NCBI RefSeq assembly: GCF_000497125.1
Contig: NC_090601.1
Span: 1,116,001 to 1,180,000, forward strand
From: Spironucleus salmonicida
Taxonomy: Eukaryota
Direction: 5' to 3'
DNA: 64,000 bases
Both the position numbers and the translations under genes were made by a program. Under the pieces are notes generated by a model. That model ran no database searches, was not told the origin of the DNA, and saw nothing but the letters and a program-made list of their open reading frames with translations. Of this stretch, positions 2,260 to 54,432 are shown one piece after another; the first letter of the stretch is position 1, and each line of letters opens with the position of its first letter.

Positions 2260-3840
2260 TCATTAATTTGCCTTAACTGCAATGATTATAGTTACTATCA
2301 CAACAATTATTAGAACTGATCCAAATACCAGGCATAATGTCAATTTCAAAGCATTAAATGAATCAATTTCACAAAAATAGCTATATTGAGAATCATAAAT
2401 ATTATTAATTAACATTAAAGGTCTAAATGAGATCTTTAAATTCTTAATAAAAGCATTTTATCGATTATAATAGTCCCCATGATAAAATAGATATATTGAA
2501 CTATCTGTTTCATTTTTTCTATTAAGGCAAGTCTTGTAATATATAACAGATTCGAATTATAAATGATATTCATATGATTAGTACGTTTGTCTACTGGCAT
2601 ACGATGAATCTACCTAAAGCACTTATTATATCTTTGTTATTATATTTTTAGAATACAGTTATATGCAACGTTCAGATTAAACTGGGAAAAACACCACGCA
2701 CGTATCACTATATGATACCAAAGTCATAAATTTATAAAAACAAGATAATACAGCTGGATAATATTTACCCTCCTCCCTTATGATTGAACCATCTGCAGCA
2801 ATTAGTGTCACAAATACAAGAATTGTGGTCGCAGTTGAATCAGTTAAAATTGACTCATTAGTATTCTTAAACATAAAAAGAATACCTCCTGTATTGACAA
2901 TTGTTTCAAAATCCGCTTAATCTATATATTGCTTACTCGTAAAAATAGCACTAGAATTGACCACAGAAGCTCCTTTTTAACATGTGTTAAGTGATGAAAG
3001 ATTCCCAACGATTTATAGTGTTTAACTTGTTATTGATCCAAATCCATCTATTGCAGTTTAACACTCCATACTTTACGAGCTGATGTTCCGAATGTAGCTG
3101 AAGATTTACTGCTCTAGGCTGGATCCTGGCTGTGTGAAATGCATAGACAGCCGTATTTGCATTTGCCTGTCTGCGGTAAACTCTGTAAAGAATGTATCAA
3201 TCTGCTTTTGTATTTCTGCCGTTGAGTCAGAAAAATTAAGTCGGTAGAACTTTGTGGACAGGTGCACGAATGGCAGTTTGTAGCCTTCGTAGTCGGCTGG
3301 TGCGGGATCTAAGGGGGCGATTGCAATCTGCTTCCACTGGGACCCCACTTAATATTGCAGACTTACGGTTGGATCCGTGATCAAGCAATCATTGGGGGTG
3401 CCTGACAGGTTCAGGTAGGACGTTTTCCCGCTCCTCGAGTAGTTTAAGCTAAGATCGCTCCAGCAATTTGACGTGTTGACGAGCGTGTTGGTTATTAGGG
3501 AAAACTAGCCGGGAACTTCTAGCTATTCTTGCAGTAGCATGGTGTAGGAGATTATGGTCAGTTTCGTCATTATACTAAATACACCAGCAGGAATTTTATC
3601 AAAATAAATGGTTAAAGATCCCTCGGAAAAATACTAAAATTCTGTCTCTATGGATTTTGTTGATCCAGCATCAATATAATTTAGTTTAGCCTTAGAAAGT
3701 GTGTTATTGAATGCTACGCATTTAATGGGAGCAGGTACCATATTGCTAATTTATATTATGTACTGTGACTTTTACATAGTAGCTATCAAAGTTGAATTGC
3801 TATGGAAGCATTATGTAACTTCAAATAAGACTAGGAGCAT
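2260..3840 (-). CDS. Type I membrane/surface protein, 526 aa; paralog of 12638-14218
   Basis: Code-6 ORF MLLVLFEVTQCFHSNSTL...; start chosen by homology; same length (1581 nt) as and colinear with the 12638-14218 gene; C-terminal hydrophobic helix. Confidence 0.8.
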
Positions 3841-4006
3841 TTTGCAATATAGATCAATATAAAACTTAATCTTCTAATAATCTTCTCGATAAATTGATAT
3901 TTCCATTTTGCTTTCTCATCGTTAATTAACACTTTCTAAATTAATGATATTGCATTTTTGCAAAATCAAAAATCAAAATACATTTAATTATATATAATTC
4001 ACATTT

Positions 4007-10735: not shown

Positions 10736-12637
10736 AATCTGGCCCGGATGACGCTGTCTGGGAAGTTGGAAACCTGAATGTCCAGGTAAATCCCCTGCGG
10801 CAGTTGCTCGCACTCGGGGCTGGGATCCGAGTCGAAGATTACTCACCTCTGACCGGCAGCAAGGTTAACGTAAATAATCTTGTTCCTTTTGTAGCAGTTA
10901 CTAAGTGGCTCTGAGATTAAAATAAATGAATTATCGTCAGGTTTAACATATTTTAGCAACATTGCGTTTATAATTTTTGACAGCATATCTTACATATTAG
11001 TACTAAATTTCTATATTATGGATGTTAATTGACAAGTTATAAAGATTTGTGCGAATTTTTTACGAATACATTACATGTAACGCGCATTATTAAATAATTT
11101 TCAAATATTTAATCTTGTATGTAAAATGGTATTTAGATGGTTATTATCGACAATTTAAGTAGCTATTAGTTCAGCTTAGAAAATCTATAATTTATAATAT
11201 ATTACCTCTGACAAAAAGGAATCTATCATTAAATAAACATACAACATGATATTGTATTGGTATCTGAGAATTAATATATAAAAATTAGATTCTCAGTAAG
11301 TAGTATAATAATACTTGGTGGAGCTCTATTAGTCTTACTATATACTATTCAAGGCTACAATACAGTTTTAGCACGACTACTTTAAGAATTGAATAATTTG
11401 AATGTAAATAGGTTACGCCATCTAGTTTCGTTGTGTGACCTTCTAAAACATACTCACTAATTAAAAATAGTAATTGAAAATAGTTAGGCAGTCTTACTAT
11501 GGTATATTTAGATATCTAAAAAAATAAATGTATAATAGTCATTAAGAACGCAATATTCAGCTGGCCGAATATGCATGCAATAAAATCTGCTTCATATAAT
11601 ATGGGTATACTTGGAAAAAAATGAAACCGTAACAGCGATATTTTGCATTAAGTAAACTGCCCCGATACGTTAGCTAACTGAATTTTGCTATATATGTCAT
11701 GATGTGTTATAATGGCCTTACTTAACTTATAAGAAATTTAGATTTAATAATATGAATTGCTAATTCTTGTTATATTTCTCTTATCTAAAATTTAATAGTA
11801 ATGAACATTATTTTCATTACTAACAGCATTTTTGTATTCATACTATTTAATTTTAGTAAAGGTTTGGTTATTTCATCCAATATTACCAAATTTTTTGTAA
11901 CTTAAACATTATATAATTATTCGTGTAAATCGAATTATGATGGAGTCATATTTAAATTATGAAATTTCCTACCTGGATAAACTTCGTTTTCTCCTGTCCA
12001 GATGAACATTTTGTACTTTTAATAAAAATAATAACAATATATACCTTGAATCAATATATTACTCTATAGAATTTTTATATAGTTCAACCTTTTTATATAT
12101 GTTATCATAAGTTAGTCAAAATATACTTAAACTGTCATCCTATAATTTTTAATTATTTTGTTGTACGTTTATAAGTGTTGCTTCTTTAGATGTTATGTAA
12201 TTAACTACAATAATCTAAGATTTTATTTCACACTCGTTTAAAACTATACAATATCAAATTTAACAAAAAACTTTATACATAAGATTAGAAATTATTATTT
12301 TTATGTTATGGTTTAAATTAATGACACAATCAAAAAATATCAATAATCAGTTGTAGACAAAATTATCGAATTACAAAATTATAGAATATTTTTAACGTAA
12401 AATTATATTATTTAAATATAATATTATAGAATAAATAAAATTATACATTATATTATATAATTCCTTCATCAAGTATTATGGTATATATAAAATAAATTAA
12501 TTTTAAAAATATCAAATTTACGATACACAGAAAATAACCAATATTATAAACTAATTAATTTCAAATAGAAAAACACTTAAAAATAATTTTTAATTACTAG
12601 CTAAAATTAAACTAGAATTAATAGCACTCATTTTCAA

Positions 12638-14218
12638 ATGCTGATTGTGCTATCTGGACTGACACAATGCTTCTACTCTAATTCAACTTTAATAGGAGTG
12701 ATGCAAAAGAAGTAATATGAGATCACAATTACGAACTTAGATCCATCGCCTATTAAATGTCAAGCTTTCAACAATAGTCTTTCAATAGCTAAACTAAATT
12801 ATGTTGATGCTAGAACAACAAAATCAATAGAGACAGAATTTTAGTATTTTTCAAATGGTTCCTTAAAGATTTTGTTCGACAGCATCCCAGCAAAGGACTT
12901 TGACGTTATGAATAAACTGTCTATAATCTCCTACACCATGCTACTGCAAGAATAGCTAGAAGTTCCCGGCTAGTTTTCCCTAATAACCAACACGCTCGTC
13001 AACACGTCAAATTGCTGGAGCGATCTTAGCTTAAACTACTCGAGGAGCGGGACAACATCCTACCTGAACCTGTCAGGCACCCCCAACGACTGTCTCATTA
13101 ACGATCCTAAAATTTTCATTCAGTACCAGGTAAATGGCACGTGGAACTCGATTCCAATCGCCCCCTTAGATCCCGCACCAGCCGACTACGAAGGCTACAA
13201 ACTGCCATTCGTGCACCTGTCCACAAAGTTCTACCGACTTAATTTTTCTGACTCAACGGCAGAAATACAAAAGCAGATTGATACATTCTTTACAGAGTTT
13301 ACCGCAGACAGGCAAATGCAAATACGGCTGTCTATGCATTTCACACAGCCAGGATCCAGCCTAGAGCAGTAAATCTTCAGCTACATTCGGAACATCAGCT
13401 CGTAAAGTATGGAGTGTAACACCTAACTTGAAGCGTTTGGGGCAGTTTCGTCCGGCACGCTTTAAATTGTAGGTGATTTAACTGCATTCAACAGCTGCTA
13501 GGTTGGTACTGCCTTCGTTAACTCAAGTGCAATTTTTATGTACTAGCAAAATAATGACCGCCGGCCAATAAATGTAATTGCAAGCATGGGAGGTATTCTT
13601 TTTGTACTACCGTCTAAAAATGAATCTGTGCTGACTGACCCATCAGTTACAGACATTATCCTTTTCATTACTCTTATAAAAGAAGATGGTACAATACTGC
13701 GTGAGGAAGTAAAATACTACAAAGCAGTTCTATCATGCTTCTACAATTTCCTCACATTGGTATCTTATACGGATACATGCCTTATATTTTTCCCAGTGCA
13801 GTCAGAAAGATGTGTTGAATTATACTCACACAAAGTAAAAACACGCATTCAGTAAATCTTGTAACCAACTGCGGCATCTTCTAGCCGTTTGGTCCATTAG
13901 GTTTATGAATTTGTAATGCCCTTCGAATCAGTTAACTATTTCAAAACTTGCTTGAAAGGATAAAATACAACAAGAGATTCTACATACAAATTTTACCCTG
14001 GAGATTTTCCGTAGAGATAAGCCGGATTTGTTGATAATTTAGCTTCATCATTTCAGCCGCTAATAATCATTAACAATGACCAAGATTTTTAGTTTGCGTA
14101 CTTATGTTCGAATAATACATTTTAAAATGTATTACTTATCTTACTGTTAACATTTTTGGCTGTTGCTGTAGTCTTAGTAATTGCTGTCACTGTTATAACT
14201 GTTAAAATGCACTAGTGA
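12638..14218 (+). CDS. Type I membrane/surface protein, 526 aa; paralog of 2260-3840
   Basis: Code-6 ORF MLIVLSGLTQCFYSNSTL... ending in TM helix FLAVAVVLVIAVTVITV, then TAG TGA. Confidence 0.8.
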
Positions 14219-14237: not shown

Positions 14238-16289
14238 TCATTAGCACTCGTTGAACCGCTGCTCGACCATAATCAGCTAAACGATCAAATTCAGGTATCC
14301 CATATTATCCGCGCCCAGTTATCTCCGCATCGCGTCCCCATCCAGCTCATTGTCGTTGTCATTTGCGTCCATAACCGCTCCATATACGTTGACAAAACTA
14401 TCAAATCCTAGCTCTTTTTCCATGAAGGCGCGTAGGCTCTCCATCCGATAGCAGAGGCTCTCTTTGGCGTTCGGATTGGTGAGCTTTTTCTTCCATTCGT
14501 CCGCAGCATTGGCCTTGTTGTTAAAATTCTAATCTGGCTAGTCTCCAAAATCAGAATCTGATGACTCCTCCGAACGCGCGTAGGGATCATACCGCTTGAC
14601 TGGTTACTTTTTGGCTGCCTGTGGCGCTTCAACTTGCGACTAAGGCTTTTTCCAGCCACCCAACGGTTCCGGCTCGTTGTCTTTAGCTTTCTGACGCTAC
14701 TTCATCTCGTCCAGCCTCTCTTAATCCTTACGTTTCTGGACCTCAATGAGATATTATTTCGGATTTTCACGCTTCAGCCTAGCCATATATTGGGCTCGCG
14801 CCGCGTCTCCGCCCGCAGCTGGTGCCTCTTTAGCGCCATCCAGCTCGCTCTGCCACTGACTTTGGTACTACTACTTGTTTTTCTCCAGTGCTATTTTCCG
14901 CTATTCTTGAAGATCTCGCTGCTGCTAAATAGCAGCATTTCGCATTTTGTCCTCCTCCATCTGAGCGCGTTTGCTGGCCTCCGCCTTCCGCTCCCGCATC
15001 TCAGCGTCGCGGGCTCTGCGCTCGAACTCCGCGCGCTCCTGCGCCATTTGCTAATTTTTGAGTTTCAGGGCCTCAATTTCACGCTGCCTCAGCGCATCCT
15101 GCTGTTTGGCTTGGTTTATAAGATTGTTCTCTTAATCTTGCCGGCTAGCAACCGGTTTCACGTTCAGCCCAGGCTGCATACCGTTAATCACTTATGGTTT
15201 GTTTTAGTTCGAATTTTGTGGGTAATTTACTCTAGAAGGTGGCTAATTAGAGGGGTAGGAGGTGCGTACCTACGCAGGCTGCTTGACAGCATTCTAAGGT
15301 GGATTTACTGGGTTCTGAACCACAGCGGCCTTATATTGCTGCATTTGCTCGTTTTCCTTCTGCGCGTAAACGTTTCCTGGCTGAACACTTGGTTTTTACT
15401 CGTTAAAACCCTTCAAAATGTCACCTTTTCCGTGGAAAACAGTATGCGCAAACTCATCCTGAAGAACCTCGTCAGGAAGCTGCTTCTAAATACGTTCCTG
15501 AAGGCACGGGAGCTTCAAAATCGTGTTCACACTAGGCCGCTTTTTAGGGTCTTTCTACAGCATTGCAGTACACAAATCGCGCATATTCTGGCTATATTTA
15601 CTGCTAATAGGCGTGTATTTCCCTTCCAAAATTTTTACGATTAGCATCTTCATATTCGCGGCCTCAAATGTGTGATTCAATGTGCAGAGCTCGTAAAGAA
15701 TACAACCGAGCGCCCATACATCAGATTTATTGTTGTAACCCTGATTATTGCATAATTCGGGAGACAGATAATAGGGCGTTCCGATGGCCGTTCTGGCGCA
15801 TTCCATCGTCGAATTTAAGATTTTTGAGACACCGAAATCACCAATTTTGCAGATCTTTTTTCCGCTCTAAAGATCCATGAAAATGTTCTGCGTCTTGAGG
15901 TCGCGGTGGAGGATTCTGCGGTCATGGATGTGCTTCAGGGCCAGAGTAATCTGGATGAACCAATCCCAGATCACCTGCTCGTCAAAGAGCTGTCCGCGCG
16001 TTTTCTGGCCTCTGATCGTGTCGTGGAGGTCGCCGCCGTTGGCAAACTCCATTACGATGTAGAGAAAGCGTTGGTCGGTGAATGACTCCTTGTAACCGGT
16101 GATGTACGGGTGGGCTAGCTTTTCGAGGATTTTTGACTCTTGTAGCGCCTCCTCGCGTTCTTGGGGCTTCATCGCAGATATTTGGATTATCTTCATCACG
16201 AATTATTTCTTTGTAGAAAGCTCTTGGACCAGAGCAGCTCTGCCGAACGAGCCTTTGCCGAGCGTTTTTATCTCCTTGTAACGGTTCAT
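14238..16289 (-). CDS. NEK: NEK (NIMA-related) Ser/Thr kinase with long coiled-coil C-terminus, 683 aa
   Basis: [37 protein letters not shown] motifs; continuous frame only when TAA/TAG=Gln. Confidence 0.95.
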
Positions 16290-16865
16290 ATTTTGTGGAA
16301 GGGTATGGCATATATTATATATATTATATAATAAATAGGGTGTGTGTAGAGGAAATTGATGTCAGTCAATAATGTCTAAATATTGAATCTGAGAGCAGGT
16401 TCGTTAGTAAAAGATAGCTGAAAGATAATTCTAATATGTGGAGGTGTGGTAACAATGAAATATTTGAAGAATATGTAGTATAGTATTTTTTGATAGAGTC
16501 TGAGTTTTTGCGTTTATTTCTTAATTTATTAAATGCTTATATTAAATAAAACATGTCTTAGCGACAACTTCTTATGAATTTCTATTATAACTAATCTTTA
16601 AGTGTTTTATATATGATGAAAGAAATTTACATAAATATTACATAATTAATTCATACTCATCTGCACATGTTAAATATGATACACACTTCGCAGCATATAA
16701 GTTTAGATAGACATAGCTTTATTGTAATATTTAAAATATATAAAGCATAGAAAGCTGTGATTTTTAATTGTGGGTAAATCGGCATTTCATGAGCATAGTT
16801 ATTTCATTTATTATAAATCGTTACGAATGATATAAAACTAATAAAATTATAACAGAAATCTGTGC

Positions 16866-17195
16866 TCATTTGAATGTAACGCCGCGGAGGAGGCCGTCCG
16901 CACCCACGAACACCGGCGTGCCGTGGAGTGTGGTGTAGAAGGGAACCTCTGGTTCCTCCAGGAGCACCGCTCCCAGTGCGCGTCTGAGCTCGTCTGCCTG
17001 TCTAGTCGCGGTAATAGCAGCGAGATCTGGCGCCAGTAGCGCTTCCAGCCCCGGGAGCTGGGCGGAGCCGCGAGCCCGGAGAACGAGACCCGTAACCAGG
17101 AAGCATAAGAAAACTGCAAGCAGTGCGTGAGATGCCATACGTTGTCTCGCCTCATGTCGCTCGAGGGCTTCGATGTGCTGGTTAGCGGTCGCCAT
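16866..17195 (-). CDS. Hypothetical single-TM protein, 109 aa (IR1 left copy)
   Basis: ATG..TGA ORF with TM segment HALLAVFLCFLVTGLVL. Confidence 0.6.
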   Translation of the reverse strand: MATANQHIEALERHEARQRMASHALLAVFLCFLVTGLVLRARGSAQLPGLEALLAPDLAAITATRQADELRRALGAVLLEEPEVPFYTTLHGTPVFVGADGLLRGVTFK

Positions 17196-17210
17196 TAGTG
17201 GAGTGGTAGC

Positions 17211-17744
17211 TCACTTGTGCAGCTTGCGGTTGCGTTTCGCGTGCTTGTTCTGCGCGGATCGCACCTTCATGCGTGCGAGGCGCACTAGCTGCTCTGTGCG
17301 CTCGATCTCGCCGCGGCGGGCCTCGACCTTGCCGGTCATGCGCGCGTCCTTGAGGAAGACCTCGTCCACAATGGAGCGCGCCTGTTGCCGCTTGGTGAGA
17401 CGGCTATAGAACTCCCGACTGCCTGGAAGCACGGCGGCCAGCTGTACGCGGTCGGGCAGCGCGCCCTCCCAGTCAGTGATCTGGCGCCTGCCAAGGTCGC
17501 GCAGCTTGAGCGCCTCCAGCTCCAGGCGTGTTCTGGCGGTTAGCTCCATGTCTGCCATGGCGTGGAAGCTGCGTGCTCCCTGGGACTTCGCTTGCGGTGG
17601 AGGGGCGCGCCAGTGACAGTCTGCGGGACCGGCGGTGTCTGGAAGGCGCGAGAACTGCTACACCATGCGGGCCGTCTCCGCGGAGAGGGTGGGCGCCTGC
17701 TGGGTACTGAACGTGGTACTGGGCGTGTAGCCGAAGACGTCCAT
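17211..17744 (-). CDS. FCF2: Fcf2-like pre-rRNA processing protein, 177 aa (IR1 left copy)
   Basis: FHAMADMELTARTRLELEALKLRD...LPDRVQLAAVLPGSREFYSRLTKRQQARSIVDEV resembles the Fcf2/DNTTIP2 C-terminal domain; one TAG read through. Confidence 0.75.
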
Positions 17745-17762
17745 TGCGGAGCGGAGCGGGGA

Positions 17763-18071
17763 ATGCAGAGCTAGGTGTAGTTCAGCCTCCCGCTCGCGCT
17801 AGCCTGTGCATCCTGCGCAACGGTGCTGCCATACAACGCAAAGCTGCGAGCGCGCAAGCGGGTAGTACCGGGGGGGCTGTGCTTCGCCGTCCGCTGCCCG
17901 TCCTGCCGTGGCACGCTAGAGGTGCGTCAGGAGGCGGGAGTATTCCGCGCGGGTGACGGGGCCGAGATACCGCCATCTAAGTTGCAGCCCGTCCAGAGCA
18001 GGGCAGAGCCGCCCACTTCGGAGTCAGACCTGGACTTCGCGGCAGCTATCCGTCAGCAACGGAGCGAGTGA
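17763..18071 (+). CDS. Yju2/Cwc16/CCDC130-like zinc-binding protein, 102 aa (IR1 left copy)
   Basis: VQFSLPLALACASC...KLRARKRVV...FAVRCPSCRGTLEV...GA follows the Yju2/CCDC130 twin-CxxC pattern. Confidence 0.6.
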
Positions 18072-18081
18072 CCCTTCCACA

Positions 18082-19419
18082 ATGTCCACCATCCAGCGCT
18101 ACGTCGCCGAGGCAGCCCAGGCCGAGTCCCTGCGCCGCGGCCCCGAGACCTTCGCTGAGCGCCACGTGTTCGTGGACCTCACCGAGCTGCTAACCTACCT
18201 AGCCGACCGGGAAGCTTCCCTCGCAGCATTCCGGGGAGACCTACGCCCCCTGACCGCGGGACTGGACTGCTTCCTGCAGGGTGTACTGGCTCTGGGACCT
18301 GCCTCAGTCACGCTGGCCCAGGACGGTAATCCCAGCCAAGCCGTCGCGCTGCACTGCCTGCCCCTGCAGATGGCTTAGGCTGCAGCCGCCACGCGGTTCT
18401 AGCGCACCGGGAACGTTAAGTTCGCATAGGAGGCCTTCCGGCTGAGCCCCAGACAGCGACTGCAGGTCCACGAGCATCTTGTCGCCTCGTTCCCGGCTGT
18501 GCGCTCCCTCATCGCCCCAGTGCTGGCGCGGCACTATGTTCGGGGCTACGACATCGCCGTATCCCAAGCTCAGTGGGCCCTGCTCTCTGCAGCAGACGTG
18601 GTACCAAGCTTCCATGCGCTCGGAATGCTGCTCAGCGGGGAGCTAGCCACCCTGGAGGTGTACGATGCCCAGTTCCTGGAGCACGTCCTCGGGCAGGACC
18701 GTGACCGTCTCGCCCTCCTCCTCGGGGATGAGTATTTTCCTGGTTATTCAGTACTTCCGATTATTGAACATACAGGATTGAAATACTAAAAATTATAAAA
18801 ATTGAACATTAAGTTATAGAAAATTACTTTTAATACGGCTATGGATATCTCTAAAGGAAAAACTATTTCACAAATTGCTACTTATATGCTAGGTTAAGAA
18901 AACTATATAGTATAACATGTGTTTGATGACTATAATCGGTAACTCACCTCATTAGAAGTATTAATGTCAATACTGGAGCGATAAATGCTATAATTTTATT
19001 CTGAAGTTTATAACATTACTACGTAAGAATTTTCTTCTCCAAAATGTACTAATTAGGATAGCGACTTTTCATCATAGTATTTTTGCAGTTATTTTAAGAG
19101 TTACCATGGAAATACTCATAATTCAACATCAATTATACAAGAGAATTTAAACATCTATGATAAAATTATTTATCTCTTATAAGATCTCGTCTAAATGCGT
19201 AAATTTGTCCAATTTAATAAAACTAAGCATAATATGCCATTGACTTTTGAGGAATACTGTTATTTTGCACAGTTATCTATTAAACCCAGATCTGGAGCTA
19301 AAGTATTTCTTGCCGAAATGCAGAAACAAGGCGTGCAGGAGGTGTCACAGTATGTATCTTGGGAAAAATTGACTCAGGAAGACCCAGGCGAGCTAATAAA
19401 GCGCATTTTAAGAAGATGA
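18082..19419 (+). CDS. PIN-like XPG/FEN1-superfamily protein, probably inactive, 445 aa (variant A)
   Basis: HVFVDLTELL, VTLAQDGNP, SLIAP and H3TH-like LALLLGDEYFPG; several catalytic acidic positions appear substituted. Confidence 0.65.
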
Positions 19420-19430
19420 TTATATTTTTA

Positions 19431-21269
19431 TCACTCGATACCTCTCACGTAGTTACCACTCAGTTCGCCTCCCCTAATTTTCCACTCCCCGTCAACCAAT
19501 TCGCACATTTCCTCCAGCTGTTTCTAGATATTTTTAGGTATGAAATAGTCCAAAATGGCCTATTTTTATGCTATTTGCATCTAAATTCGCTCCATATCCA
19601 CCTGCCTAATTTCTCGCTCGCGCGCATTCTCGCTCTGCTAGTTCTGATATTCGTCTAGTTTCTCCTAATTCTTCACCGAATACTTTTCAGATTTTCGCTT
19701 CAAAGCGTCGATTTCCTCTTGAATGTTCTAGTAATTCTGCTCATCCAGGACTTCCTTCTCCGCCTGCTCCTCCAGCTACCTTTTCAGCTGTTGCGCCGCC
19801 ACCTTTCTGTCCGCAATTTCCTGACGTGCAATTCGTAGCTCTCTCTCTTGCTGCTCCTACTCAGTCTGCAACTACTCCTTTTGCGACAGCTGGCGCTTCT
19901 GCTGCTCGATTTTCTCTGCCATCTGCTGGACGAATTTACGCGCTGCTTCAGACTTCGCCTCCTTCTATTGGAGCCTATTTAGAAGCTGCTGATGCTGGTT
20001 CTTCTGCAGCTCAATTTCGTCCTCTGATAGTTTCTTGACGTTGAGCTTCTTGACAACGTGTATTTTAGATAGTTTTTCCTAGATTATTTAAATTTGTTCG
20101 GCCTGGTGCTGTTGGCCCTCTTCCGTGTCTGGCTAAACGCCAGAAAACAACTTTTGGAGCTACTCCTCAAGACTTTAAATTTAGTCCTTCATCTCGCGAA
20201 TCTAGGCATCTTTTGGGTCTTCATTTACTTTCGCCTTGTTTTTGATTCTTTTGGCCCTATCAGCGTATCTAAGCGTAGACATTGTCTCTTCAAAATTTGT
20301 CGAAGCTGGTGAGACAGCTACGACCATCAACGTTTTTGAATTTCCTCCTAATGAGTCTTTTAATAAATGTGTTAATTTTGACTGTCTGTAAGGGATATGT
20401 GTCTCTTGATCAACTAGTTTTTAAATGACAATACCAAGATTTGATAACGATAAATTAATCTTAGCACCTTCTTTTAGACGATCACCAGTAGCTTCAGTTT
20501 TTCCTTGACGCTCAGAACCAGCTAAGTCAACTAAATTAAGTTTTCCAACACGAACAGTTTCTTTTCCTTCTATAATTTGTTAGCATTCAACAATAACTTA
20601 AAAAATCGAATGGGATCGAGATGATGTAGCGTTCATTTTTGTTGCTGCCACAGATCTGTGCTTATTTCCCTTTTCCATGATATCATTAATCTCCTTATCA
20701 GATTAAACCTAATATTCTGTAAGGCCATTAATATAAACACCTTTGTCAGGATTTTCATTAACTGGTAAATTTAAAATACCCGTCATTAAGTCACGAATCT
20801 ACTCATTATAAATTTCATAAAATGAACATCTAACTAAATATGAAGTATCATCATCAGCCGAGGATATATAGTCAAAAATACGTTAAATTGCCATTGGAAT
20901 CATCCCAATATCATCTCCATAGCCCATCATTGTATATGTTTTTCCAGACCCAGTTTATCCATAAGCAAAAACAGTGCTATTGAAACCTTATAAAACAAAT
21001 TCAACAGCAGGCCTAACAGACTCATCAAAGACTTCAATTTGAGTAGACCATTAGTCTTTATCGTTTTATCCATAAACAGCATCAAATGTAAAAGTTTGAT
21101 ACGATTTTTCAGCAAGTTGTTTCCCGGATATATCTTTAGAGAATGGTTTTTCAACCTAAACCTAGCCCATTGGTTTATTCATTCGAATAATTTAAGTTGC
21201 ACCTTCATTTGCTTCACGCTAATTAAAGGGTCTGCAACGAATGAGAACTTTAACATTATCATCGGACAT
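19431..21269 (-). CDS. Kinesin motor, kinesin-2/KIF3-like, 612 aa
   Basis: [21 protein letters not shown] (Q=TAA), [40 protein letters not shown] neck, coiled-coil tail. Confidence 0.95.
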
Positions 21270-21401
21270 TTGTGACAAAAAATAGTATTTATTATTATAT
21301 TATATATAAAATTTGTTTCATTTTAATTATAGAGATAAACAGGTTAAAACTCTTTTATTTGTGTAATTTGTATCAGTATAATATTAACTTTAACTATAAT
21401 A

Positions 21402-22670
21402 TCACACTTCTAACTAGTTTAAAACCTCATATCTATCTGATTCTAAATTGACTTCATATAATTATTCTATAATAGTATAAAAGGTATCTACTTTAAAAGA
21501 GTGTTAATAAAAATATTTAAATTCATGATAATTTAAGCATAAGTCTTTGCTCTTGAACTGCTTGTATTATTTATAAATAAACTCATTAATTTAAATATTC
21601 TTGAATAATAGTAATTTTTTAATGAGACAATGATATTCAATAATAAAAGTTGATTGTATTGTCTAATCACATGGTTATAAGTTACTGAAGATGTATTTGT
21701 TGCTAAAATGTTATAATGCAAACTTATAATCTTATTAAGTAATAGGATTTTTATGAAAAGAACTGTCTGATATAATACAATAAATAATATCAAAAAATCG
21801 TAAAAATTATCGCTATAGAATACAATTAAGACTTTAAAACTAATTAAGGATATATTTAGTTTATGTGTAGTTATCTTTGTAACAAACGAGGAAATATTCA
21901 TCCTTATACAAAAAATCAATTAAATTAACCATATCATATTATTAAATTAAACATAGTGTTTAAACAATTGATATCTAATAAATAACATTTTTTCTTTTAT
22001 AACTAAATCCAGGAAAATACTCATCCCCGAGGAGGAGGGCGAGACGGTCACGGTCCTGCCCGAGGACGTGCTCCAGGAACTGGGCATCGTACACCTCCAG
22101 GGTGGCTAGCTCCCCGCTGAGCAGCATTCCGAGCGCATGGAAGCTTGGTACCACGTCTGCTGCAGAGAGCAGGGCCCACTGAGCTTGGGATACGGCGATG
22201 TCGTAGCCCCGAACATAGTGCCGCGCCAGCACTGGGGCGATGAGGGAGCGCACAGCCGGGAACGAGGCGACAAGATGCTCGTGGACCTGCAGTCGCTGTC
22301 TGGGGCTCAGCCGGAAGGCCTCCTATGCGAACTTAACGTTCCCGGTGCGCTAGAACCGCGTGGCGGCTGCAGCCTAAGCCATCTGCAGGGGCAGGCAGTG
22401 CAGCGCGACGGCTTGGCTGGGATTACCGTCCTGGGCCAGCGTGACTGAGGCAGGTCCCAGAGCCAGTACACCCTGCAGGAAGCAGTCCAGTCCCGCGGTC
22501 AGGGGGCGTAGGTCTCCCCGGAATGCTGCGAGGGAAGCTTCCCGGTCGGCTAGGTAGGTTAGCAGCTCGGTGAGGTCCACGAACACGTGGCGCTCAGCGA
22601 AGGTCTCGGGGCCGCGGCGCAGGGACTCGGCCTGGGCTGCCTCGGCGACGTAGCGCTGGATGGTGGACAT
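21402..22670 (-). CDS. PIN-like XPG/FEN1-superfamily protein, 422 aa (variant B; same N-terminus, diverged C-terminus)
   Basis: Frame stays open about 200 codons past the IR edge to TGA 21404-21402. Confidence 0.65.
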
Positions 22671-22680
22671 TGTGGAAGGG

Positions 22681-22989
22681 TCACTCGCTCCGTTGCTGAC
22701 GGATAGCTGCCGCGAAGTCCAGGTCTGACTCCGAAGTGGGCGGCTCTGCCCTGCTCTGGACGGGCTGCAACTTAGATGGCGGTATCTCGGCCCCGTCACC
22801 CGCGCGGAATACTCCCGCCTCCTGACGCACCTCTAGCGTGCCACGGCAGGACGGGCAGCGGACGGCGAAGCACAGCCCCCCCGGTACTACCCGCTTGCGC
22901 GCTCGCAGCTTTGCGTTGTATGGCAGCACCGTTGCGCAGGATGCACAGGCTAGCGCGAGCGGGAGGCTGAACTACACCTAGCTCTGCAT
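22681..22989 (-). CDS. Yju2/Cwc16/CCDC130-like protein (IR1 right copy)
   Basis: Mirror of 17763-18071. Confidence 0.6.
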
Positions 22990-23007
22990 TCCCCGCTCCG
23001 CTCCGCA

Positions 23008-23541
23008 ATGGACGTCTTCGGCTACACGCCCAGTACCACGTTCAGTACCCAGCAGGCGCCCACCCTCTCCGCGGAGACGGCCCGCATGGTGTAGCAGTTC
23101 TCGCGCCTTCCAGACACCGCCGGTCCCGCAGACTGTCACTGGCGCGCCCCTCCACCGCAAGCGAAGTCCCAGGGAGCACGCAGCTTCCACGCCATGGCAG
23201 ACATGGAGCTAACCGCCAGAACACGCCTGGAGCTGGAGGCGCTCAAGCTGCGCGACCTTGGCAGGCGCCAGATCACTGACTGGGAGGGCGCGCTGCCCGA
23301 CCGCGTACAGCTGGCCGCCGTGCTTCCAGGCAGTCGGGAGTTCTATAGCCGTCTCACCAAGCGGCAACAGGCGCGCTCCATTGTGGACGAGGTCTTCCTC
23401 AAGGACGCGCGCATGACCGGCAAGGTCGAGGCCCGCCGCGGCGAGATCGAGCGCACAGAGCAGCTAGTGCGCCTCGCACGCATGAAGGTGCGATCCGCGC
23501 AGAACAAGCACGCGAAACGCAACCGCAAGCTGCACAAGTGA
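23008..23541 (+). CDS. FCF2: Fcf2-like protein (IR1 right copy)
   Basis: Mirror of 17211-17744. Confidence 0.75.
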
Positions 23542-23556
23542 GCTACCACTCCACTA

Positions 23557-23886
23557 ATGGCGACCGCTAACCAGCACATCGAAGCCCTCGAGCGACATGA
23601 GGCGAGACAACGTATGGCATCTCACGCACTGCTTGCAGTTTTCTTATGCTTCCTGGTTACGGGTCTCGTTCTCCGGGCTCGCGGCTCCGCCCAGCTCCCG
23701 GGGCTGGAAGCGCTACTGGCGCCAGATCTCGCTGCTATTACCGCGACTAGACAGGCAGACGAGCTCAGACGCGCACTGGGAGCGGTGCTCCTGGAGGAAC
23801 CAGAGGTTCCCTTCTACACCACACTCCACGGCACGCCGGTGTTCGTGGGTGCGGACGGCCTCCTCCGCGGCGTTACATTCAAATGA
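23557..23886 (+). CDS. Hypothetical single-TM protein (IR1 right copy)
   Basis: Mirror of 16866-17195. Confidence 0.6.
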   Translation: MATANQHIEALERHEARQRMASHALLAVFLCFLVTGLVLRARGSAQLPGLEALLAPDLAAITATRQADELRRALGAVLLEEPEVPFYTTLHGTPVFVGADGLLRGVTFK

Positions 23887-24134
23887 AATTCAATTTTATC
23901 TCTATTTGATGTGATGCTTCTTCGGTAAAATTTATTCGCTCACGTATAAAGTATGTCTATTTCTATAGTTAAATTTAATGAATTGTATAATTAGTAATTG
24001 TTCATCAATCCGTATATAGAATATAATATCTATATATATTAACAAATATATGTAATATAATTTAATCTCGATCTAAAAATATTACTATCATATTTAGTAT
24101 ATATCGGCGCGCTAAGATCAACTCTAATTATTAA

Positions 24135-24614
24135 ATGAGAACCGTGATTAAACCAGTAAATAAACCACACATCTAAAAATATAGTGAGCAGTATTCGCAT
24201 AAATCAACTCTCTTACCGTGCATGAAGAACAAATCTTTCTAGATGCCTTCATTACACGCAAGTTCCTTTAGTGTTCCGTAGGCATATCTTACTAAACCTG
24301 TCCGAAGCTTAATCCTGAGAAATGTATACCCAGAACAAACAGATTAAATTCCGGTATTAAAAAGATAGATATCTTAGATAAGCTTCAGGGATTTCACCCA
24401 GGACATCATCCCTCACATTCGACTCCAATAGCGGCTCGCCGATATAGATAAAGTTCGTGAAGCAGCTGAGAGCGAATGGCGCGTGGTCAATAAAGTAAGG
24501 AAGGGGAGCTTTGTTGAGTAGGAGGACGGGCTGCAAGAACCGAGCCATATAAAACTCATCCGAAGGCAAAGTTTTATGCGTAGCTGCAGCAACCTTTTCG
24601 ATATTGAGAAATGA
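24135..24614 (+). CDS. Hypothetical protein, 159 aa (copy 1), straddles outer IR2 edge
   Basis: Code-6 ORF MRTVIKPVNKPHIQKY...SCSNLFDIEK*. Confidence 0.6.
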
Positions 24615-24721
24615 TGTAGTGCCCCAAAGAATGCGCGTACAACCTTTCTGCGCTAAACTAAAATGAATAGTATTTTACTCACTTCATCGTCCCTAAATTA
24701 TACAGCCCTGCATCAAAGATA

Positions 24722-25294
24722 TCACTTGTAGTCGCGCCTCTCATACCCGCCACGTCTATCACCGCCATCTCTTTTCTCGTATCCACCACGCCTGTCGCCG
24801 CCGTCCCTATCACCACCACGCCTATCATTATAACCGCCACGTCTATCACCACCATCTCTGTCACCACCGCGTCTGTCATTATATCCTCCGCGTCTGTCAC
24901 CGCCATTGAATCCACCACGGTTATCACCACGTTTTGCAAAGCTTTCTCTAATGTTCTTATATACTTCGGCTTCCTCGTCACCACTGACGATGGACAACTT
25001 AACCTCATTCTGCCCAAGGACAAGAGGTGTCTCGGCAAACTCTTCCATAACCTTCTTGGTTGCATCAACGTCTTATTCAGAAAACCTTAGCACGGCCTCA
25101 GTCTTACCAGCGGCATAGTCTACATGCTTGATGAAACCAAACTTTCCAAACACTTCTTTGAGAATCTCGCGTGTTACACGCTGATCCTTGACATCCTCTG
25201 AGTCAGGGCGGAAATCTCTGTCAAATACACCATCATTGACACCAATGACGCCGATATCTGATATCCTAAGGAGGAGGTCCTTAATAAATTCCAT
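24722..25294 (-). CDS. Stand-alone xRRM (La-type C-terminal RRM) + RGG-repeat RNA-binding protein, 190 aa (copy 1)
   Basis: LLLRISDI...VTREILKEVFGKFGFIKHVDYAAGKTEAVLRF...LSIVSGDEEAEVYKNI, then DRRGG repeats; one TAA read through. Confidence 0.85.
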
Positions 25295-25401
25295 TTGGAG
25301 GAAGTGAAAGAGGAGAGGAGAATTTGTGGAGTGGTGTATATAATATTGAACTAACAGAGCGGGGTGGAGATTATTATATAAAACGGGCCACATGATCACG
25401 A

Positions 25402-25623
25402 ATGGAACACGTGAATGCAAAGATTTACAAGGCCTCACAGATTGAGAACCTTAACCAAGTTTTCTTGTCATAATAGTCTTAAAAGTCCGCCGTCGCCGCG
25501 GAACATAGCTAGAGAGGTATAGTATAGGCACACCCGCCTGTATATGCGCATATCGATCGTCCTCAGATTCTAGACGTACTAGATTCCGCACAGGCTAGAA
25601 AAGCGGCTAAGCTCCTCGAATGA
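25402..25623 (+). CDS. Small hypothetical protein, 73 aa, inside the IR2 arm (also at 28120-28341 -, 31556-31777 +, 34274-34495 -, 37711-37932 +)
   Basis: MEHVNAKIYKASQIENL...KAAKLLE*; divergent from the xRRM gene; stop lies 6 nt from the arm edge. Confidence 0.45.
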
Positions 25624-25851
25624 TAATTTCAGGTATATTGATACTCATTCATTATCAATTTTGTAAAGTATATTTTGCTGTCTCTTCAACATAGAGGTTT
25701 ATATTGATCAATGTTCATGAATAATCACTATCCGTATTTCTCTCATCTATTCTGTTGAACACTGAGAGTTTGATATTCTATGGTTTTTAGAGCTTTAATA
25801 TATTTATATACCATTAATATATAAAAATTATAGATTATTTGATCTTAGCAA

Positions 25852-26163
25852 ATGCGAGATATGTCGTTAGCACGACGTAGGGGGTAACACACAAGTGATC
25901 AAAGAAATAAACGTAAATAATGTGTATTGCCGTAAAAGTTATAATAAATACCCGACTGTGGAATTAGTACTCATATACCTCCTTTACAAACCCCATCTTA
26001 ACTCACATCAAACAGGTTGTGCCAGACTATGAATTAAATGCTCCTGGTAGATACATTAAATAAGGAAGATATCTCATAAGGTGAAGATAGGACTGACTAT
26101 ACCCTACATAACATCTAGTCTGAAATTCAACAGCTTGAATGCCTCAAGTTGGTGATAAAATGA
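25852..26163 (+). CDS. Hypothetical protein, 103 aa, in the invertible spacer
   Basis: Code-6 ORF MRDMSLARRRGQ...LKLVIK* behind an AT-rich upstream element. Confidence 0.5.
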
Positions 26164-27700
26164 TCTTTTGTGCTCAGTTATGATAAGCTTCAAACGCACC
26201 AACCGCTAAATATTAAGTTGGAAACTGCATACTCTAGTAAGGTTTAGGGGGTTATAATACTAAATTTATTTTAAATCATTTTAGGTAAAGTATAGCATCT
26301 AAATTATTAAGTTATCCGTTACGAGTACTCTATTTTCTATATATAGTTATTATATTAAGTAATTAATTATGAATTTATTCATATCAATGTTAGTACTTCG
26401 CCGAATTTTGATTTTTAACTTTTATCATAGAGAGTTATATAGATATTATAAGGAGCACTAGCAAAAATTACTAAAATTATATTAAAAATTAGATGCCATT
26501 AATTGATATTTATTATATAAGCTAATTTATAGTATCTAATCAGAATAAATTAAAATATATTCTAAATATTATTTTGTTTAAGAAGGTCTTCTTCTAATTT
26601 TCATTAATCTTTTAAAATTGACCTATCTGTCAATCATGATTATGTTTTATAATTTTCAAGTTTAAATATAAGATTTGTTATGATATAGAAATGTAGTAAT
26701 GTAATATTTTATACTAACTAAGTAAAGTTTGATCTTTGAATAATCATTACCATAAATATATTTTTTAAAATGTTAATAATTTTTAAATAATTATCTAGGT
26801 TAGAAACTTATAATACCAAAATGATCTAGTTATTCTGATTTTTGTAAGGCATCATACATATTAGTGTTAAACATACAGTATAACATCAATTATCTGGTAC
26901 TATTATTAACTATAAGTGTTACGAATCTTTTACTGCTAGAAAGGAATATTAGTTATTTTGAAGTTTATTCGCTCAAACGACTTAACCATATATTTAATTT
27001 CTAACTATATCGAAAATCCTGCTACTTTTTCCATAATGAGCACAATAAAGTTATTTCTCTATCGTAATTTTATTTAGTTCATATACTCATATTTATTATA
27101 TGCAATTGAATACATGGTTATTATTTAGACTTATTATTTGTGATAACCGCTCATAACTTAAGACTGTTAAATTTTCCTATAGATAAATTATTTAGTAACG
27201 TTTAAAGTAAAGTATATTAATAATTTGGAAAAGCATAAGATACCTGATACTTATAATTTGTATTCCTTATTGATAATTAGAAAATGTATTAATCAAGCGT
27301 ATTCGGCTATATAAATAATAGAAAATTCCAAAACCCGTTTATTGTAGTCTTAGTGATGGTCTAAAATATCAAACAAATTGTAAACTTTACATCCAAAACC
27401 TGACCTTATCTTTAATACTCATTGCCAAAATTCATTATTAATATAGATTATATCAATTTCTTAGTATAAATAACCCAGATATTTGCTACTGAGTAATATC
27501 CTGAAAAGATACAAAATAAAAAAATACAATAACACTACACCTTGTGTTTATATTTCAGTAACAATTTTAAAAAATACTATACAAAATGTAAAAAGATTAT
27601 TCACTCATTATAGGCATAAACACTTTAATTAGCTAATGGTTTATTTGGAAATATTCGTATTATGATGAAAAAGTAGACAACGTATTAGGATAAATTTCGT

Positions 27701-28093
27701 TCATTTGTTTACATTTATCTGGATATTTAATAATGCCTACTAATATTGGCACATACGGGTCCTTCGAGCTCCACGAAACACAGTGGTAGATTCTATTTAT
27801 TCCTTGCGAATAAGTTGATTTTAATCAATAAACATGAACTATGGAACTTTTAAAGTTTCATATTTTCGAAAACTACGGTGTACATAATAGTTTGGTTACT
27901 ATTTTGGACAAGATGGGATATTAAAGTCTATAATGACATTATGTTTATATGGCAGTAATACTAAATTCGGTGCATATTCAAAGTCATTAGATATCTAATA
28001 ACTGTGCAACGTGGATGGGGGCTTCATAGGATGCACTTTAGAGTACTAAAAAGATTTAACTGCGTGCATTTGGAAGGAGATAGTATGTCCCAT
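27701..28093 (-). CDS. Hypothetical protein, 130 aa, in the invertible spacer
   Basis: Code-6 ORF MGHTISFQMHAVKSF...NIQINVNK*. Confidence 0.55.
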
Positions 28094-28448
28094 TTATTAT
28101 ACACAGAAATCTTAAATTATCATTCGAGGAGCTTAGCCGCTTTTCTAGCCTGTGCGGAATCTAGTACGTCTAGAATCTGAGGACGATCGATATGCGCATA
28201 TACAGGCGGGTGTGCCTATACTATACCTCTCTAGCTATGTTCCGCGGCGACGGCGGACTTTTAAGACTATTATGACAAGAAAACTTGGTTAAGGTTCTCA
28301 ATCTGTGAGGCCTTGTAAATCTTTGCATTCACGTGTTCCATTCGTGATCATGTGGCCCGTTTTATATAATAATCTCCACCCCGCTCTGTTAGTTCAATAT
28401 TATATACACCACTCCACAAATTCTCCTCTCCTCTTTCACTTCCTCCAA

Positions 28449-30064: not shown

Positions 30065-30289
30065 TTATACTAGCGAATTTTAAATTATTATATTATATTA
30101 TGTATAGTATAAATATATTTATATAAAATGTATAGAAAAGTTTTATATCTATAGTATTTAATCTACCATAGATTACTTCATTAATAGTTTAATTTATAAT
30201 TGATACCATTGGTGCTGTATTTACCGATCTAAAATATTACTATCATATTTAGTATATATCGGCGCGCTAAGATCAACTCTAATTATTAA

Positions 30290-39036: not shown

Positions 39037-39060
39037 GTAATTCATCTAATTCCACTCCTA

Positions 39061-54156: not shown

Positions 54157-54432
<276 letters not shown>

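What the first reader, a model, noticed from the sequence alone, without database searches (positions are those of the whole stretch)
18082..22670. Two PIN/XPG-like paralogs with DNA-identical N-halves and anciently diverged C-halves, split exactly at the IR1 edge
Seen: both genes are identical from ATG to ...LLLGDEYFPG (662 nt inside the arms). Both then stay open for 200+ codons in the AT-rich spacer (445 vs 422 aa). The C-halves show no evident DNA identity yet remain recognisably homologous: ILERQMLQFYSEVYNI vs ILQRQFLRFFDIIYCI, and MPLTFEEYCYF vs LCLNYHEFKYF. Inference: the duplication is very old and the arms are kept identical by continuing conversion. This argues against a recent duplication or an assembly fold-back. 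The result is a constant nuclease-like head with two variable tails, with the breakpoint at the end of the H3TH-like motif.
Basis: partly seen in the sequence, partly recalled or inferred. Interest (0 to 1): 0.85.

Follow-up and report, generated by a model that had tools for sequence, protein, structure and literature searches.

The report
Small palindrome homogenising half a gene
Two copies of an orphan gene in a protist that reads TAA/TAG as glutamine share a perfectly identical, GC-rich front half inside an inverted repeat, while their AT-rich back halves have drifted almost beyond recognition, most likely through GC-biased gene conversion between the repeat arms.

Summary
A perfect 1878-nt inverted repeat (16866-18743 / 22009-23886) flanks a 3265-nt spacer that carries one kinesin gene. 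Read with TAA/TAG = Gln, two convergent ORFs (C1 18082..19419 +, 445 aa; C2 21402..22670 -, 422 aa) share 662 identical bases. Their tails are 28% identical (E 6e-6; 0 of 1000 shuffles reach the score).

The four steepest GC steps in the 64-kb window are the four edges of this repeat (about 65% GC inside, 14-28% outside).

Contigs from an independent assembler show both junction sequences. Contigs of three cDNA-like runs from another study cross the C1 junction. No listed contig crosses the C2 junction.

Best reading: an old inverted duplication whose outer part is kept identical, and made GC-rich, by arm-to-arm gene conversion. The 3' halves of C fell outside the converted zone.

The "PIN/XPG-like" label has only weak support. 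Pfam, PDB and 1.84 billion proteins gave nothing, and AlphaFold failed. A profile comparison with archaeal FEN1 gave P about 0.03, and an Atlas structure look-up listed XPG families below its bar.

"Two functional variable tails" is not shown. This is an ordinary mechanism (palindrome conversion) in an unusually clean example.

The parts
16866..18743 (.). Left arm of the palindrome, about 65% GC
   Evidence: 1878 nt, 100% complementary to 22009-23886. GC in 100-nt steps goes 26 to 62 at 16866 and 63 to 23 at 18744.
22009..23886 (.). Right arm of the palindrome
   Evidence: GC goes 14 to 63 at 22009 and 62 to 25 at 23887. In run X1 the arm is a single 1878-nt contig.
18744..22008 (.). Unique spacer: tail of C1, kinesin gene, tail of C2
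   Evidence: X1 contig 18714-22038 covers it, with 30 nt of arm at each end.
18082..19419 (+). Gene C1, 445 aa (P0001). A public model, P0003, starts at Met97 (18370).
   Evidence: cDNA-like contigs 18112-19364, 18126-19405 and 18166-19387 cross 18743/18744 with no gaps. The only ATGs between 18040 and 18400 are at 18082 and 18370.
21402..22670 (-). Gene C2, 422 aa (P0002)
   Evidence: One 212-nt contig, in 1 of 3 cDNA-like runs, lies on 21349-21560.
18744..19416 (+). Tail 1 (225 codons counted from 18742), 30% GC
21405..22008 (-). Tail 2 (202 codons), 20% GC
19431..21269 (-). Single-copy kinesin gene, 612 aa
   Evidence: Pfam Kinesin, E 2.3e-116. Contigs 19417-21254, 19430-21261 and 19536-21259.
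17211..17744 (-). Fcf2-like gene, left-arm copy
   Evidence: Pfam PF08698, 34.7 bits, above the cut-off of 27.
23008..23541 (+). Fcf2-like gene, right-arm copy
   Evidence: Mirror image of 17211..17744 in the identical arm.
16866..17195 (-). 109-aa ORF whose TGA is the first three bases of the arm (copy at 23557..23886 +)
   Evidence: No Pfam family.
17763..18082 (+). Possible 102-aa ORF ending at TGA 18069-71, with a poly(A) site at 18080-18082 that abuts the ATG of C1 (mirror: 22670-22989 -)
   Evidence: Run X6: A10 follows 18082. Run X5: adapter plus T10 precedes 22670. Only a sub-threshold zinc-ribbon hit.

Best explanation
This is a small nuclear palindrome in a protist that reads TAA/TAG as glutamine. 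The features fit a hexamitid diplomonad such as Spironucleus salmonicida; that is my inference, not a tool result.

Inferred history: a segment of at least 2.5 kb was duplicated in inverted orientation around a single-copy kinesin gene. The segment carried a 109-aa ORF, an Fcf2-like gene, a small ORF and the orphan gene C.

Inferred mechanism: since then, arm-to-arm gene conversion has kept the outer 1878 nt identical. Because repair of the heteroduplex favours G/C, the converted block has climbed to about 65% GC. The inner 0.6-0.7 kb (the 3' halves of C) fell outside the converted zone. Once diverged, it could no longer pair, so the boundary froze in mid-gene. The tails drifted to the AT-rich background and to 28% protein identity.

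Only TGA stops translation here, so both tails still read open.

Shown directly: the perfect arms, the homologous tails, the GC cliffs, and cDNA-like contigs running unbroken through the C1 junction. Inferred: the age of the duplication, the continuing conversion, its GC bias, and any function.

The protein is an orphan. It may be a much-degraded XPG/FEN-like fold without the catalytic acidic residues. C2 may be a weakly used or decaying copy whose head is kept intact only by conversion.
For: Arms and tails:
- 0 differences in 1878 nt.
- Tails are homologous at 28% identity, E 6e-6; 0 of 1000 shuffles reach the score, and each tail is the other's best non-self hit in the window.
- Only same-register frame pairs score above background (101, 80, 52). 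Off-register pairs score 38-53, so the similarity has stayed in register, which suggests that length changes came in multiples of three.

Composition:
- The four steepest 200-nt GC steps of the whole window (0.40-0.48; the next is 0.36) are the four arm edges.
- Head GC is 66% (GC3 77%), tails 30% and 20%.
- Head GARP residues 0.34 against 0.11 and 0.04 in the tails. Gln stop-type codons are TAG 3 / TAA 0 in the head, and TAA 10 and 14 in the tails. The head therefore evolved under the same genetic code.

A second case in the window: the inverted paralogue pair 2260..3906 / 12308..14218 shows a central tract of 91-100% DNA identity with higher GC, inside flanks of 57-63% identity.

Reads:
- Contigs of another assembler give spacer 18714-22038, arm 22009-23886, and outer flanks 16000-16895 and 23857-24105.
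- cDNA-like contigs bridge 18743/18744 in 3 of 3 runs.

Literature (passages read):
- For S. salmonicida, duplicated regions average 44.7% GC against 30.7% elsewhere (PMC9509377).
- G+C-rich segments were left unexplained; TGA is the only stop; 3' UTRs are 9-14 nt (PMC1805757). The last point fits the poly(A) seen 9-11 nt after TGA 18069-71.
- GC-biased conversion in palindromes is established in primates (PMC8981503, PMC3723533; abstracts in a search listing).
Against: - No outgroup and no whole genome were available. The direction of the GC change, and whether conversion is continuing or was a single event, were not tested.
- GC-rich blocks with steep edges also occur outside any repeat seen in the window, for example 9520-10860 with steps of 0.36 and 0.34. 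In the neighbouring repeat 39022-43173, the GC-rich part runs past the arm edge.
- The large repeat 24381-29361 holds long AT-rich stretches despite 100% identity.
- Outer flanks show no convincing residual homology.
- Evidence that the tails are still coding is weak. Three-base periodicity chi-square is 15.5 and 15.8, against 61-97 for kinesin and mostly 2-10 (up to 28.5) for intergenic segments.
- Neutral simulations without indels at about 50% DNA identity reach similar frame scores. The codon-position signal follows whichever frame guides the alignment.
- The species assignment is an inference.
Confidence: 0.55

Rival explanations
1. One recent event on an old pair. Two long-diverged inverted paralogous loci underwent a single recent 1.9-kb conversion, or a re-duplication. 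The block was already GC-rich for reasons unrelated to the repeat. GC-richness, or slower decay of GC-rich sequence, set where homology ended.
For: GC-rich blocks with sharp edges exist in the window without a local partner. Other 100%-identical repeats in the window include AT-rich stretches, so perfect identity alone does not bring high GC. All large repeats here are 100% identical, which could mean many recent events.
Against: The end of the conversion tract would have to coincide with an existing GC cliff on both sides, to within the resolution measured (200-nt windows, peaks 13-16 nt from the four edges; 100-nt steps). The second pair in the window also shows higher GC in its high-identity tract. 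Genome-wide, duplicates are reported as GC-richer (PMC9509377, passage).
Confidence: 0.27
2. The tails are no longer functional coding sequence. C2, or both copies, are decaying. The frames stay open only because TAA/TAG are sense codons and TGA is rare in AT-rich DNA. Conversion merely keeps a dead copy's head pristine. This rival concerns function and is compatible with the palindrome mechanism.
For: The chance of an open frame is not small: 0.03 for tail 2 by shuffling and 0.07 empirically, and tail 2 has two open frames. Periodicity is weak. Tail 2 has intergenic-like GC of 20%. Neutral simulations can reproduce the frame scores. No relative was found in 1.84 billion representative proteins.
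Against: Both frames being open together has a chance of about 3e-4 to 5e-3. The similarity stays in one register across several gaps. The reading frame scores best, 101 against 80 and 52. C1 is covered by cDNA-like contigs from near its ATG to within 14-55 nt of its stop.
Confidence: 0.4
3. Assembly or polishing artefact: a fold-back chimera, or two slightly different copies made identical by short-read polishing.
For: The window is full of perfect repeats. The DNA run that holds the stretch may be the source of the assembly, and its contigs reach only 30 nt into the arms, below the tool's 31-letter bridging rule.
Against: A different assembler gives one spacer contig whose two ends carry the arm sequence in opposite orientations, one arm contig, and two different outer-flank contigs. 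No variant letters were listed in 4 of 4 runs. Contigs of another study cross the left inner junction (3 of 3 runs) and the right outer edge (2 of 3 runs).
Confidence: 0.05

Closest known systems
Primate X- and Y-chromosome palindromes kept alike by arm-to-arm, GC-biased gene conversion (PMC8981503, PMC3723533; abstracts seen in the listing)
   Same: Inverted arms near 100% identical around a unique spacer. Arm identity is far younger than the duplication. GC is raised in the arms.
   Different: The arms here are 1.9 kb, not tens of kb to Mb. The organism is a protist. The arm edge lies inside a gene. The GC step is about 40 points over less than 100 nt. The direction of substitutions was not tested here.
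Plastid inverted repeat: genes moved into it slow down and gain GC (PMC5010901, abstract seen). From memory, genes that straddle the IR edge leave a partial second copy.
   Same: A copy-corrected repeat with a sharp edge that can cut a gene. Sequence inside and outside the repeat evolves under different regimes.
   Different: This is a nuclear locus. Both copies continue into homologous, diverged tails rather than one being simply truncated.
Duplicated regions of the Spironucleus salmonicida genome (PMC9509377, passages read): 19.2% of the assembly in matches of at least 2 kb and 95% identity, mean GC 44.7% against 30.7% elsewhere. G+C-rich segments were left unexplained in PMC1805757 (passages read).
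   Same: TAA/TAG = Gln, TGA as the only stop, very short 3' UTRs, GC-rich islands in an AT-rich genome, and GC-richer duplicates.
   Different: In the passages I read, those papers give genome-wide averages and no mechanism. Here the edge of identity and the edge of GC fall within 13-16 nt of each other as measured with 200-nt windows. That the window is this species is my inference.
FEN1/XPG family of structure-specific 5' nucleases (Pfam XPG_N PF00752, XPG_I PF00867)
   Same: A weak, collinear profile alignment places QDGNP on the FDGkPp motif, SQAQWALL on SQDyDSLL, and LLLGDEYFPG on ILvGTDyN.g. XPG families fill 6 of 7 rows of an Atlas structure look-up.
   Different: No Pfam hit at E <= 10. 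HMM score is -0.5 bits. hhalign probability is 1.6%. TM is 0.32-0.38, below the tool's bar. In that alignment, acidic positions are replaced.

Membership tests
FEN1/XPG 5' nuclease family | Significant match to the XPG_N / XPG_I sequence profiles | tested here: not met
   Pfam gave no family at E <= 1 for P0001 and P0002. At E <= 10, P0002, the 220-aa head and tail 2 gave no family; tail 1 gave three unrelated weak hits, none of them XPG or PIN. An HMM of 15 archaeal FEN1 ORFs, 5 of them badly trimmed or wrong, scored -0.5 and -0.7 bits with all filters off.
FEN1/XPG 5' nuclease family | Profile-profile similarity, collinear over both nuclease domains | tested here: inconclusive
   hhalign of the C1+C2 alignment against 10 of the 15 archaeal FEN1 sequences (5 dropped for bad starts or a wrong ORF): score 23.4, P 0.031, probability 1.6%, 263 columns, C1 31-359 on FEN1 3-338. 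2 of 167 column shuffles reach 23.4; shuffle mean 16.0, sd 2.8.
FEN1/XPG 5' nuclease family | PIN-like alpha/beta fold followed by a helix-3-turn-helix | tested here: inconclusive
   The AlphaFold2 model has mean pLDDT 34.8 and is unusable. Foldseek against the PDB gave 0 matches at E <= 0.001 and no nuclease among 18 weak rows. The Atlas's own model (pLDDT 0.41) has XPG families in 6 of 7 rows, TM 0.32-0.38, all marked under the bar.
FEN1/XPG 5' nuclease family | Conserved metal-binding Asp/Glu residues (the list of residues is recalled, not from a call) | tested here: inconclusive
   In the weak alignment, SQDyDSLL is matched by SQAQWALL and the sEGEAqAA stretch falls in a gap. The alignment is too weak to be relied on.
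Palindrome maintained by arm-to-arm gene conversion | Inverted arms of near-100% identity around a unique spacer | tested here: met
   1878-nt arms, 100% identical, with a 3265-nt spacer holding one kinesin gene.
Palindrome maintained by arm-to-arm gene conversion | The duplication is demonstrably older than the arm identity implies | tested here: met
   Homologous sequence continues past the arm edge at 28% protein identity, with DNA identity near the random level.
Palindrome maintained by arm-to-arm gene conversion | Concerted evolution of arms across related species or strains | not testable with these tools
   No genome is held for this window or its relatives. No relative of the protein exists in the databases searched.
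GC-biased gene conversion | GC raised in the converted tract relative to the flanks | tested here: met
   The four steepest GC steps of the window lie at the four arm edges. Head GC3 is 0.77, against 0.28 and 0.20 in the tails.
GC-biased gene conversion | Excess of AT-to-GC over GC-to-AT changes, polarised by an outgroup | not testable with these tools
   No outgroup sequence is available.

The most novel reading that the evidence does not exclude
The long-unexplained G+C-rich islands of this diplomonad's AT-rich genome are made by GC-biased gene conversion between duplicated segments. This locus shows it at fine scale: a frozen conversion boundary inside a gene raises one half by about 40 GC points and recasts its amino-acid make-up, while the other half decays. 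In the boldest version, both mosaic genes are used, giving one XPG-like (catalytically dead) head with two alternative tails.
Probability: 0.2. Interest if true: 0.65.

Novelty: new member of a known kind. Interest (0 to 1): 0.45.

Why it matters
If the reading is right, this locus is a natural experiment. The same gene, in the same genome, is split by a single boundary into a converted half (66% GC, Gly/Ala/Arg/Pro-rich, 0 differences) and an unconverted half (20-30% GC, Phe/Tyr/Ile/Asn/Lys-rich, more than one change per site).

It offers a testable cause for the G+C-rich segments that a 2007 survey of Spironucleus salmonicida left unexplained (PMC1805757, passages). It would also account for the higher GC of duplicated regions reported in 2022 (PMC9509377, passage). 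A full-text search for 'Spironucleus' together with 'biased gene conversion' found 0 papers in the held library.

For annotation, it warns that in organisms with TGA as the only stop, long open frames in AT-rich DNA are weak evidence of a gene. It also warns that conversion can keep part of a possibly dead copy looking perfect.

Tried and rejected
- **RNA holders.** No RNA holder is listed on record. The three runs used as cDNA-like are only guessed to be RNA. Their contigs skip the intergenic stretch 16291-16581 and carry A or T runs next to adapters.
- **C2 junction in RNA.** No listed contig of those runs covers 21561-22401 or crosses the right junction 22008/22009; 11 records were not shown. 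This says nothing about C2 expression.
- **Word depths.** These were not used as copy number or expression level, as the tool instructs.
- **Structure.** The AlphaFold2 model of C2, built from a 2-row alignment, was unusable (pLDDT 34.8). Its Foldseek matches were noise.
- **PDB sequence search.** It gave only four hits, at E 0.37-0.83, to an epimerase/aminotransferase and a flagellar protein.
- **Homologue searches.** Two searches found only the window's own proteins.
- **Codon-position identity.** The values were 0.47/0.57/0.36 against about 0.32 expected. I rejected this as a test of selection because a frame-2-guided alignment shifts the same pattern to its own positions.
- **Outer flanks.** One AT-rich, offset local match (score 27, z 4.1 with one scoring scheme, z 0 with another) was judged not convincing.
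- **Earlier notes of this scan.** None exist for this genome.
- **Whole-genome searches.** Not possible.
- **Foreign origin of the GC-rich block.** Considered and rejected, because the head carries three in-frame TAG codons and an Fcf2-like eukaryotic gene lies in the same block.
- **An intron at the arm edge.** Considered and rejected, because the RNA contigs are collinear with the genome, with 0 gaps.
- **Supplementary files.** Additional files of PMC1805757 and Table S1 of PMC3916229 may list these genes.
Full report
**What the window is.** The window is eukaryotic and reads TAA and TAG as sense codons. With NCBI table 6, long ORFs give a kinesin motor (Pfam E 2.3e-116), a protein kinase (E 4.9e-66), a 1872-aa ORF with only sub-threshold HYDIN/CFAP65-type Ig hits, and a Sec7 protein. 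With table 11 these frames are broken. GC swings between about 20% and 65% along the window.

These features match what is published for the diplomonad Spironucleus salmonicida:
- TGA is the only stop.
- A poly(A) tail sits 9-11 nt after a TGA.
- Public runs hold the stretch in contig sets of about 12 million letters.
- The species has a 12.9-Mb genome at 33.4% GC (PMC3916229, passages).
- It has 3' UTRs of 9-14 nt and unexplained G+C-rich segments (PMC1805757, passages).

The species name is my inference; the runs are coded and no genome is held.

**The observation.** A perfect inverted repeat has arms at 16866-18743 and 22009-23886: 1878 nt, 100% complementary, 3265 nt apart. Under table 6, 18082..19419(+) gives 445 aa (C1, P0001) and 21402..22670(-) gives 422 aa (C2, P0002). 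They share exactly 662 nt, up to ...LLLGDEYFPG. Under table 11 they would stop 14 and 10 codons after the arm edge.

The Smith-Waterman score of 101 is reached by 0 of 1000 residue shuffles (mean 43.3, sd 7.7, maximum 78). Among six-frame translations of all 606-nt windows taken every 150 nt, each tail's best non-self match is the other tail; the next best scores are 68 and 85. At the DNA level the similarity is marginal, with z 4.1 or 2.2 depending on scoring.

**Are the tails coding?** The evidence is suggestive, not decisive.

In favour:
- The chance of no in-frame TGA is 0.011 (tail 1) and 0.030 (tail 2) by base shuffling, and 0.07 each by an empirical count in AT-rich parts of the window, which include real genes.
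- Tail 1 is open in one frame of six.
- Only same-register frame pairs score above background (101, 80, 52, against 38-53 off-register), so the similarity has stayed in register, which suggests that length changes came in threes.

Against:
- Tail 2 has two open frames.
- Three-base periodicity is weak: chi-square 15.5 and 15.8, against 71.7 for the head, 61-97 for kinesin, and mostly 2-10 (up to 28.5) for intergenic segments.
- The excess identity at codon positions 1 and 2 follows whichever frame guides the alignment.
- Neutral simulations without indels at about 50% DNA identity give similar frame scores. At 46% identity they seldom do: P(score >= 101) = 0.03.

Those simulations put the divergence of the tails at roughly 1.2-1.5 changes per site, against none in 1878 nt of arm.

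**Read evidence.** All runs laid are contigs.

In DNA run X1, which may be the source of the assembly, a different assembler gives four pieces:
- one contig, 18714-22038, for the spacer, carrying 30 nt of arm at each end in opposite orientations;
- one 1878-nt arm contig;
- two different outer-flank contigs, 16000-16895 and 23857-24105.

Thirty letters is one short of the tool's bridging rule. Even so, the junction words exist in the reads.

Three runs of another study are only guessed to be RNA, but they behave as cDNA. They skip the intergenic stretch 16291-16581, stop near gene ends, and carry A10 or T10 next to adapters. In 3 of 3 of them a gap-free contig runs through the left junction (18112-19364, 18126-19405, 18166-19387). 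So head and tail 1 lie on one contiguous sequence in these cDNA-like runs, most simply one transcript. In 2 of 3 a contig crosses the right outer edge (22670-23925, 22688-23930). No variant letters were listed in any of the 4 runs.

A poly(A) site at 18080-18082 on the + strand, mirrored at 22670 on the - strand, ends an upstream ORF at TGA 18069-71 and abuts the ATG of C. The only ATGs between 18040 and 18400 are at 18082 and 18370. This matches the two public gene models: P0002 starts at Met1 and P0003 at Met97.

**Composition.** The arm is a GC block with cliffs at all four edges. In 100-nt steps, GC goes 26 to 62, 63 to 23, 14 to 63 and 62 to 25. The four steepest 200-nt GC steps of the whole window (0.40-0.48) are these four edges; the next steepest is 0.36.

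| Part | GC | GC3 | GARP residues | FYMINK residues | TAA / TAG codons |
|---|---|---|---|---|---|
| Head | 66% | 0.77 | 0.34 | 0.12 | 0 / 3 |
| Tail 1 | 30% | 0.28 | 0.11 | 0.36 | 10 / 3 |
| Tail 2 | 20% | 0.20 | 0.04 | 0.46 | 14 / 5 |

The block also holds an Fcf2-like gene above Pfam's cut-off (34.7 bits against 27). A foreign origin for the block is therefore unlikely.

**A second example in the same window.** The inverted paralogues 2260..3906(-) and 12308..14218(+) are 69% identical over 496 aa. Their DNA identity is a mosaic: 57-63% in the flanks and 91-100% over about 500 central columns, where GC is 0.39-0.55 against 0.21-0.35 in the more diverged flanking windows.

Not everything fits:
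- A GC block at 9520-10860 has no partner in the window.
- The GC-rich part of repeat 39022-43173 overruns its arm.
- The 4981-nt perfect repeat at 24381-29361 contains long AT-rich stretches.

**Mechanism.** The best-supported account is an old inverted duplication whose outer part is homogenised by arm-to-arm conversion with a GC bias, with a boundary that froze inside gene C once the inner parts had diverged. This is the mechanism established for primate sex-chromosome palindromes (PMC8981503, PMC3723533; abstracts in the listing). It is echoed by the plastid inverted repeat (PMC5010901; abstract).

For S. salmonicida, duplicated regions are reported to average 44.7% GC against 30.7% elsewhere (PMC9509377, passage). 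No paper in the held library contains both 'Spironucleus' and 'biased gene conversion'.

A single recent conversion of a block that was already GC-rich remains a serious rival. Separating the two needs an outgroup.

**What the protein is.** It is an orphan.
- Only the window's own two proteins were found among 8000 scored candidates of the 5.8-billion set, and among 1.84 billion representatives read by HMMER.
- Pfam gives nothing at E <= 1 for the whole proteins. At E <= 10 it gives no XPG or PIN family for C2, the head or either tail.
- The PDB sequence search gives noise.
- AlphaFold2 on a two-row alignment fails with pLDDT 34.8, and its Foldseek matches are noise.

- The Atlas's own low-confidence model of C2 has FEN1/XPG clusters in 6 of 7 rows, at TM 0.32-0.38, all marked below the bar.
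- I fetched archaeal FEN1 genes; PF00867 was found in 15 of 15 genomes. An alignment of 10 of them (5 dropped for bad starts or a wrong ORF) compared with C1+C2 by hhalign gives a collinear alignment. Its score is 23.4, P 0.031, probability 1.6%. That score is reached by 2 of 167 column shuffles.

A plain HMM of all 15 scores -0.5 bits.

In the hhalign alignment, the arm edge falls at the start of the H3TH-like stretch, not at its end, and acidic positions are replaced. I put the XPG-like fold at about even odds, and nuclease activity as unlikely.

**Verdict.** The mechanism is a known one in a new host, with an unusually sharp signature. The functional claim of a constant head with two useful tails is unproven, and C2 may be a decaying copy.

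Noticed in passing
window 2260-3906 (-) and 12308-14218 (+): Inverted pair of orphan, membrane-anchored-looking paralogues, 69% identical over 496 aa. A central tract of 91-100% DNA identity with higher GC sits inside flanks of 57-63% identity. This looks like a partial conversion tract. No Pfam family.
   Followed up: partly
window 24076-38576: A nest of perfect direct repeats (period 6154-6155 nt) and inverted repeats (arms up to 4981 nt) carrying copies of an RRM_3-domain gene (308 and 395 aa forms). A one-base deletion at 24622 is seen in contigs of 3 of 4 runs.
   Followed up: no
window 39022-41039 / 41156-43173: Another perfect palindrome: 2018-nt arms with only a 116-nt spacer. Its GC-rich part (38722-39622) runs past the arm's outer edge.
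   Followed up: partly
window 54086-54450: Tandem array of an 8-nt unit (35 or more registers reported), in a region of strong GC skew.
   Followed up: no
window 18069-18084 and 19417-19433: Very tight gene packing. The poly(A) site of the upstream ORF abuts the ATG of C1. The stop codons of the convergent C1 and kinesin genes are 11 nt apart, and contig ends suggest that the two mRNAs overlap by about 14 nt at their 3' ends.
   Followed up: partly
window 22009-23886 (run X1): The arm contig has word depth 200.6, against 144-170 for the neighbouring single-copy contigs. That is less than the twofold one might expect. The tool states that this figure is no copy number, and GC bias is a possible cause.
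   Followed up: no
window 16866-16879 and 18730-18743: The outermost 14 nt of the arm at each edge are less GC-rich (0.21 and 0.43) than the next 60 nt inside (0.72 and 0.68). This would be expected if conversion tracts seldom reach the very end of the homology. The sample is too small to test.
   Followed up: no
window 9520-10860: A GC-rich block (55-64% GC) with steep edges and no partner in the window. It holds a 390-aa ORF on the minus strand with no Pfam family. Whether it has a copy elsewhere in the genome could not be checked.
   Followed up: no
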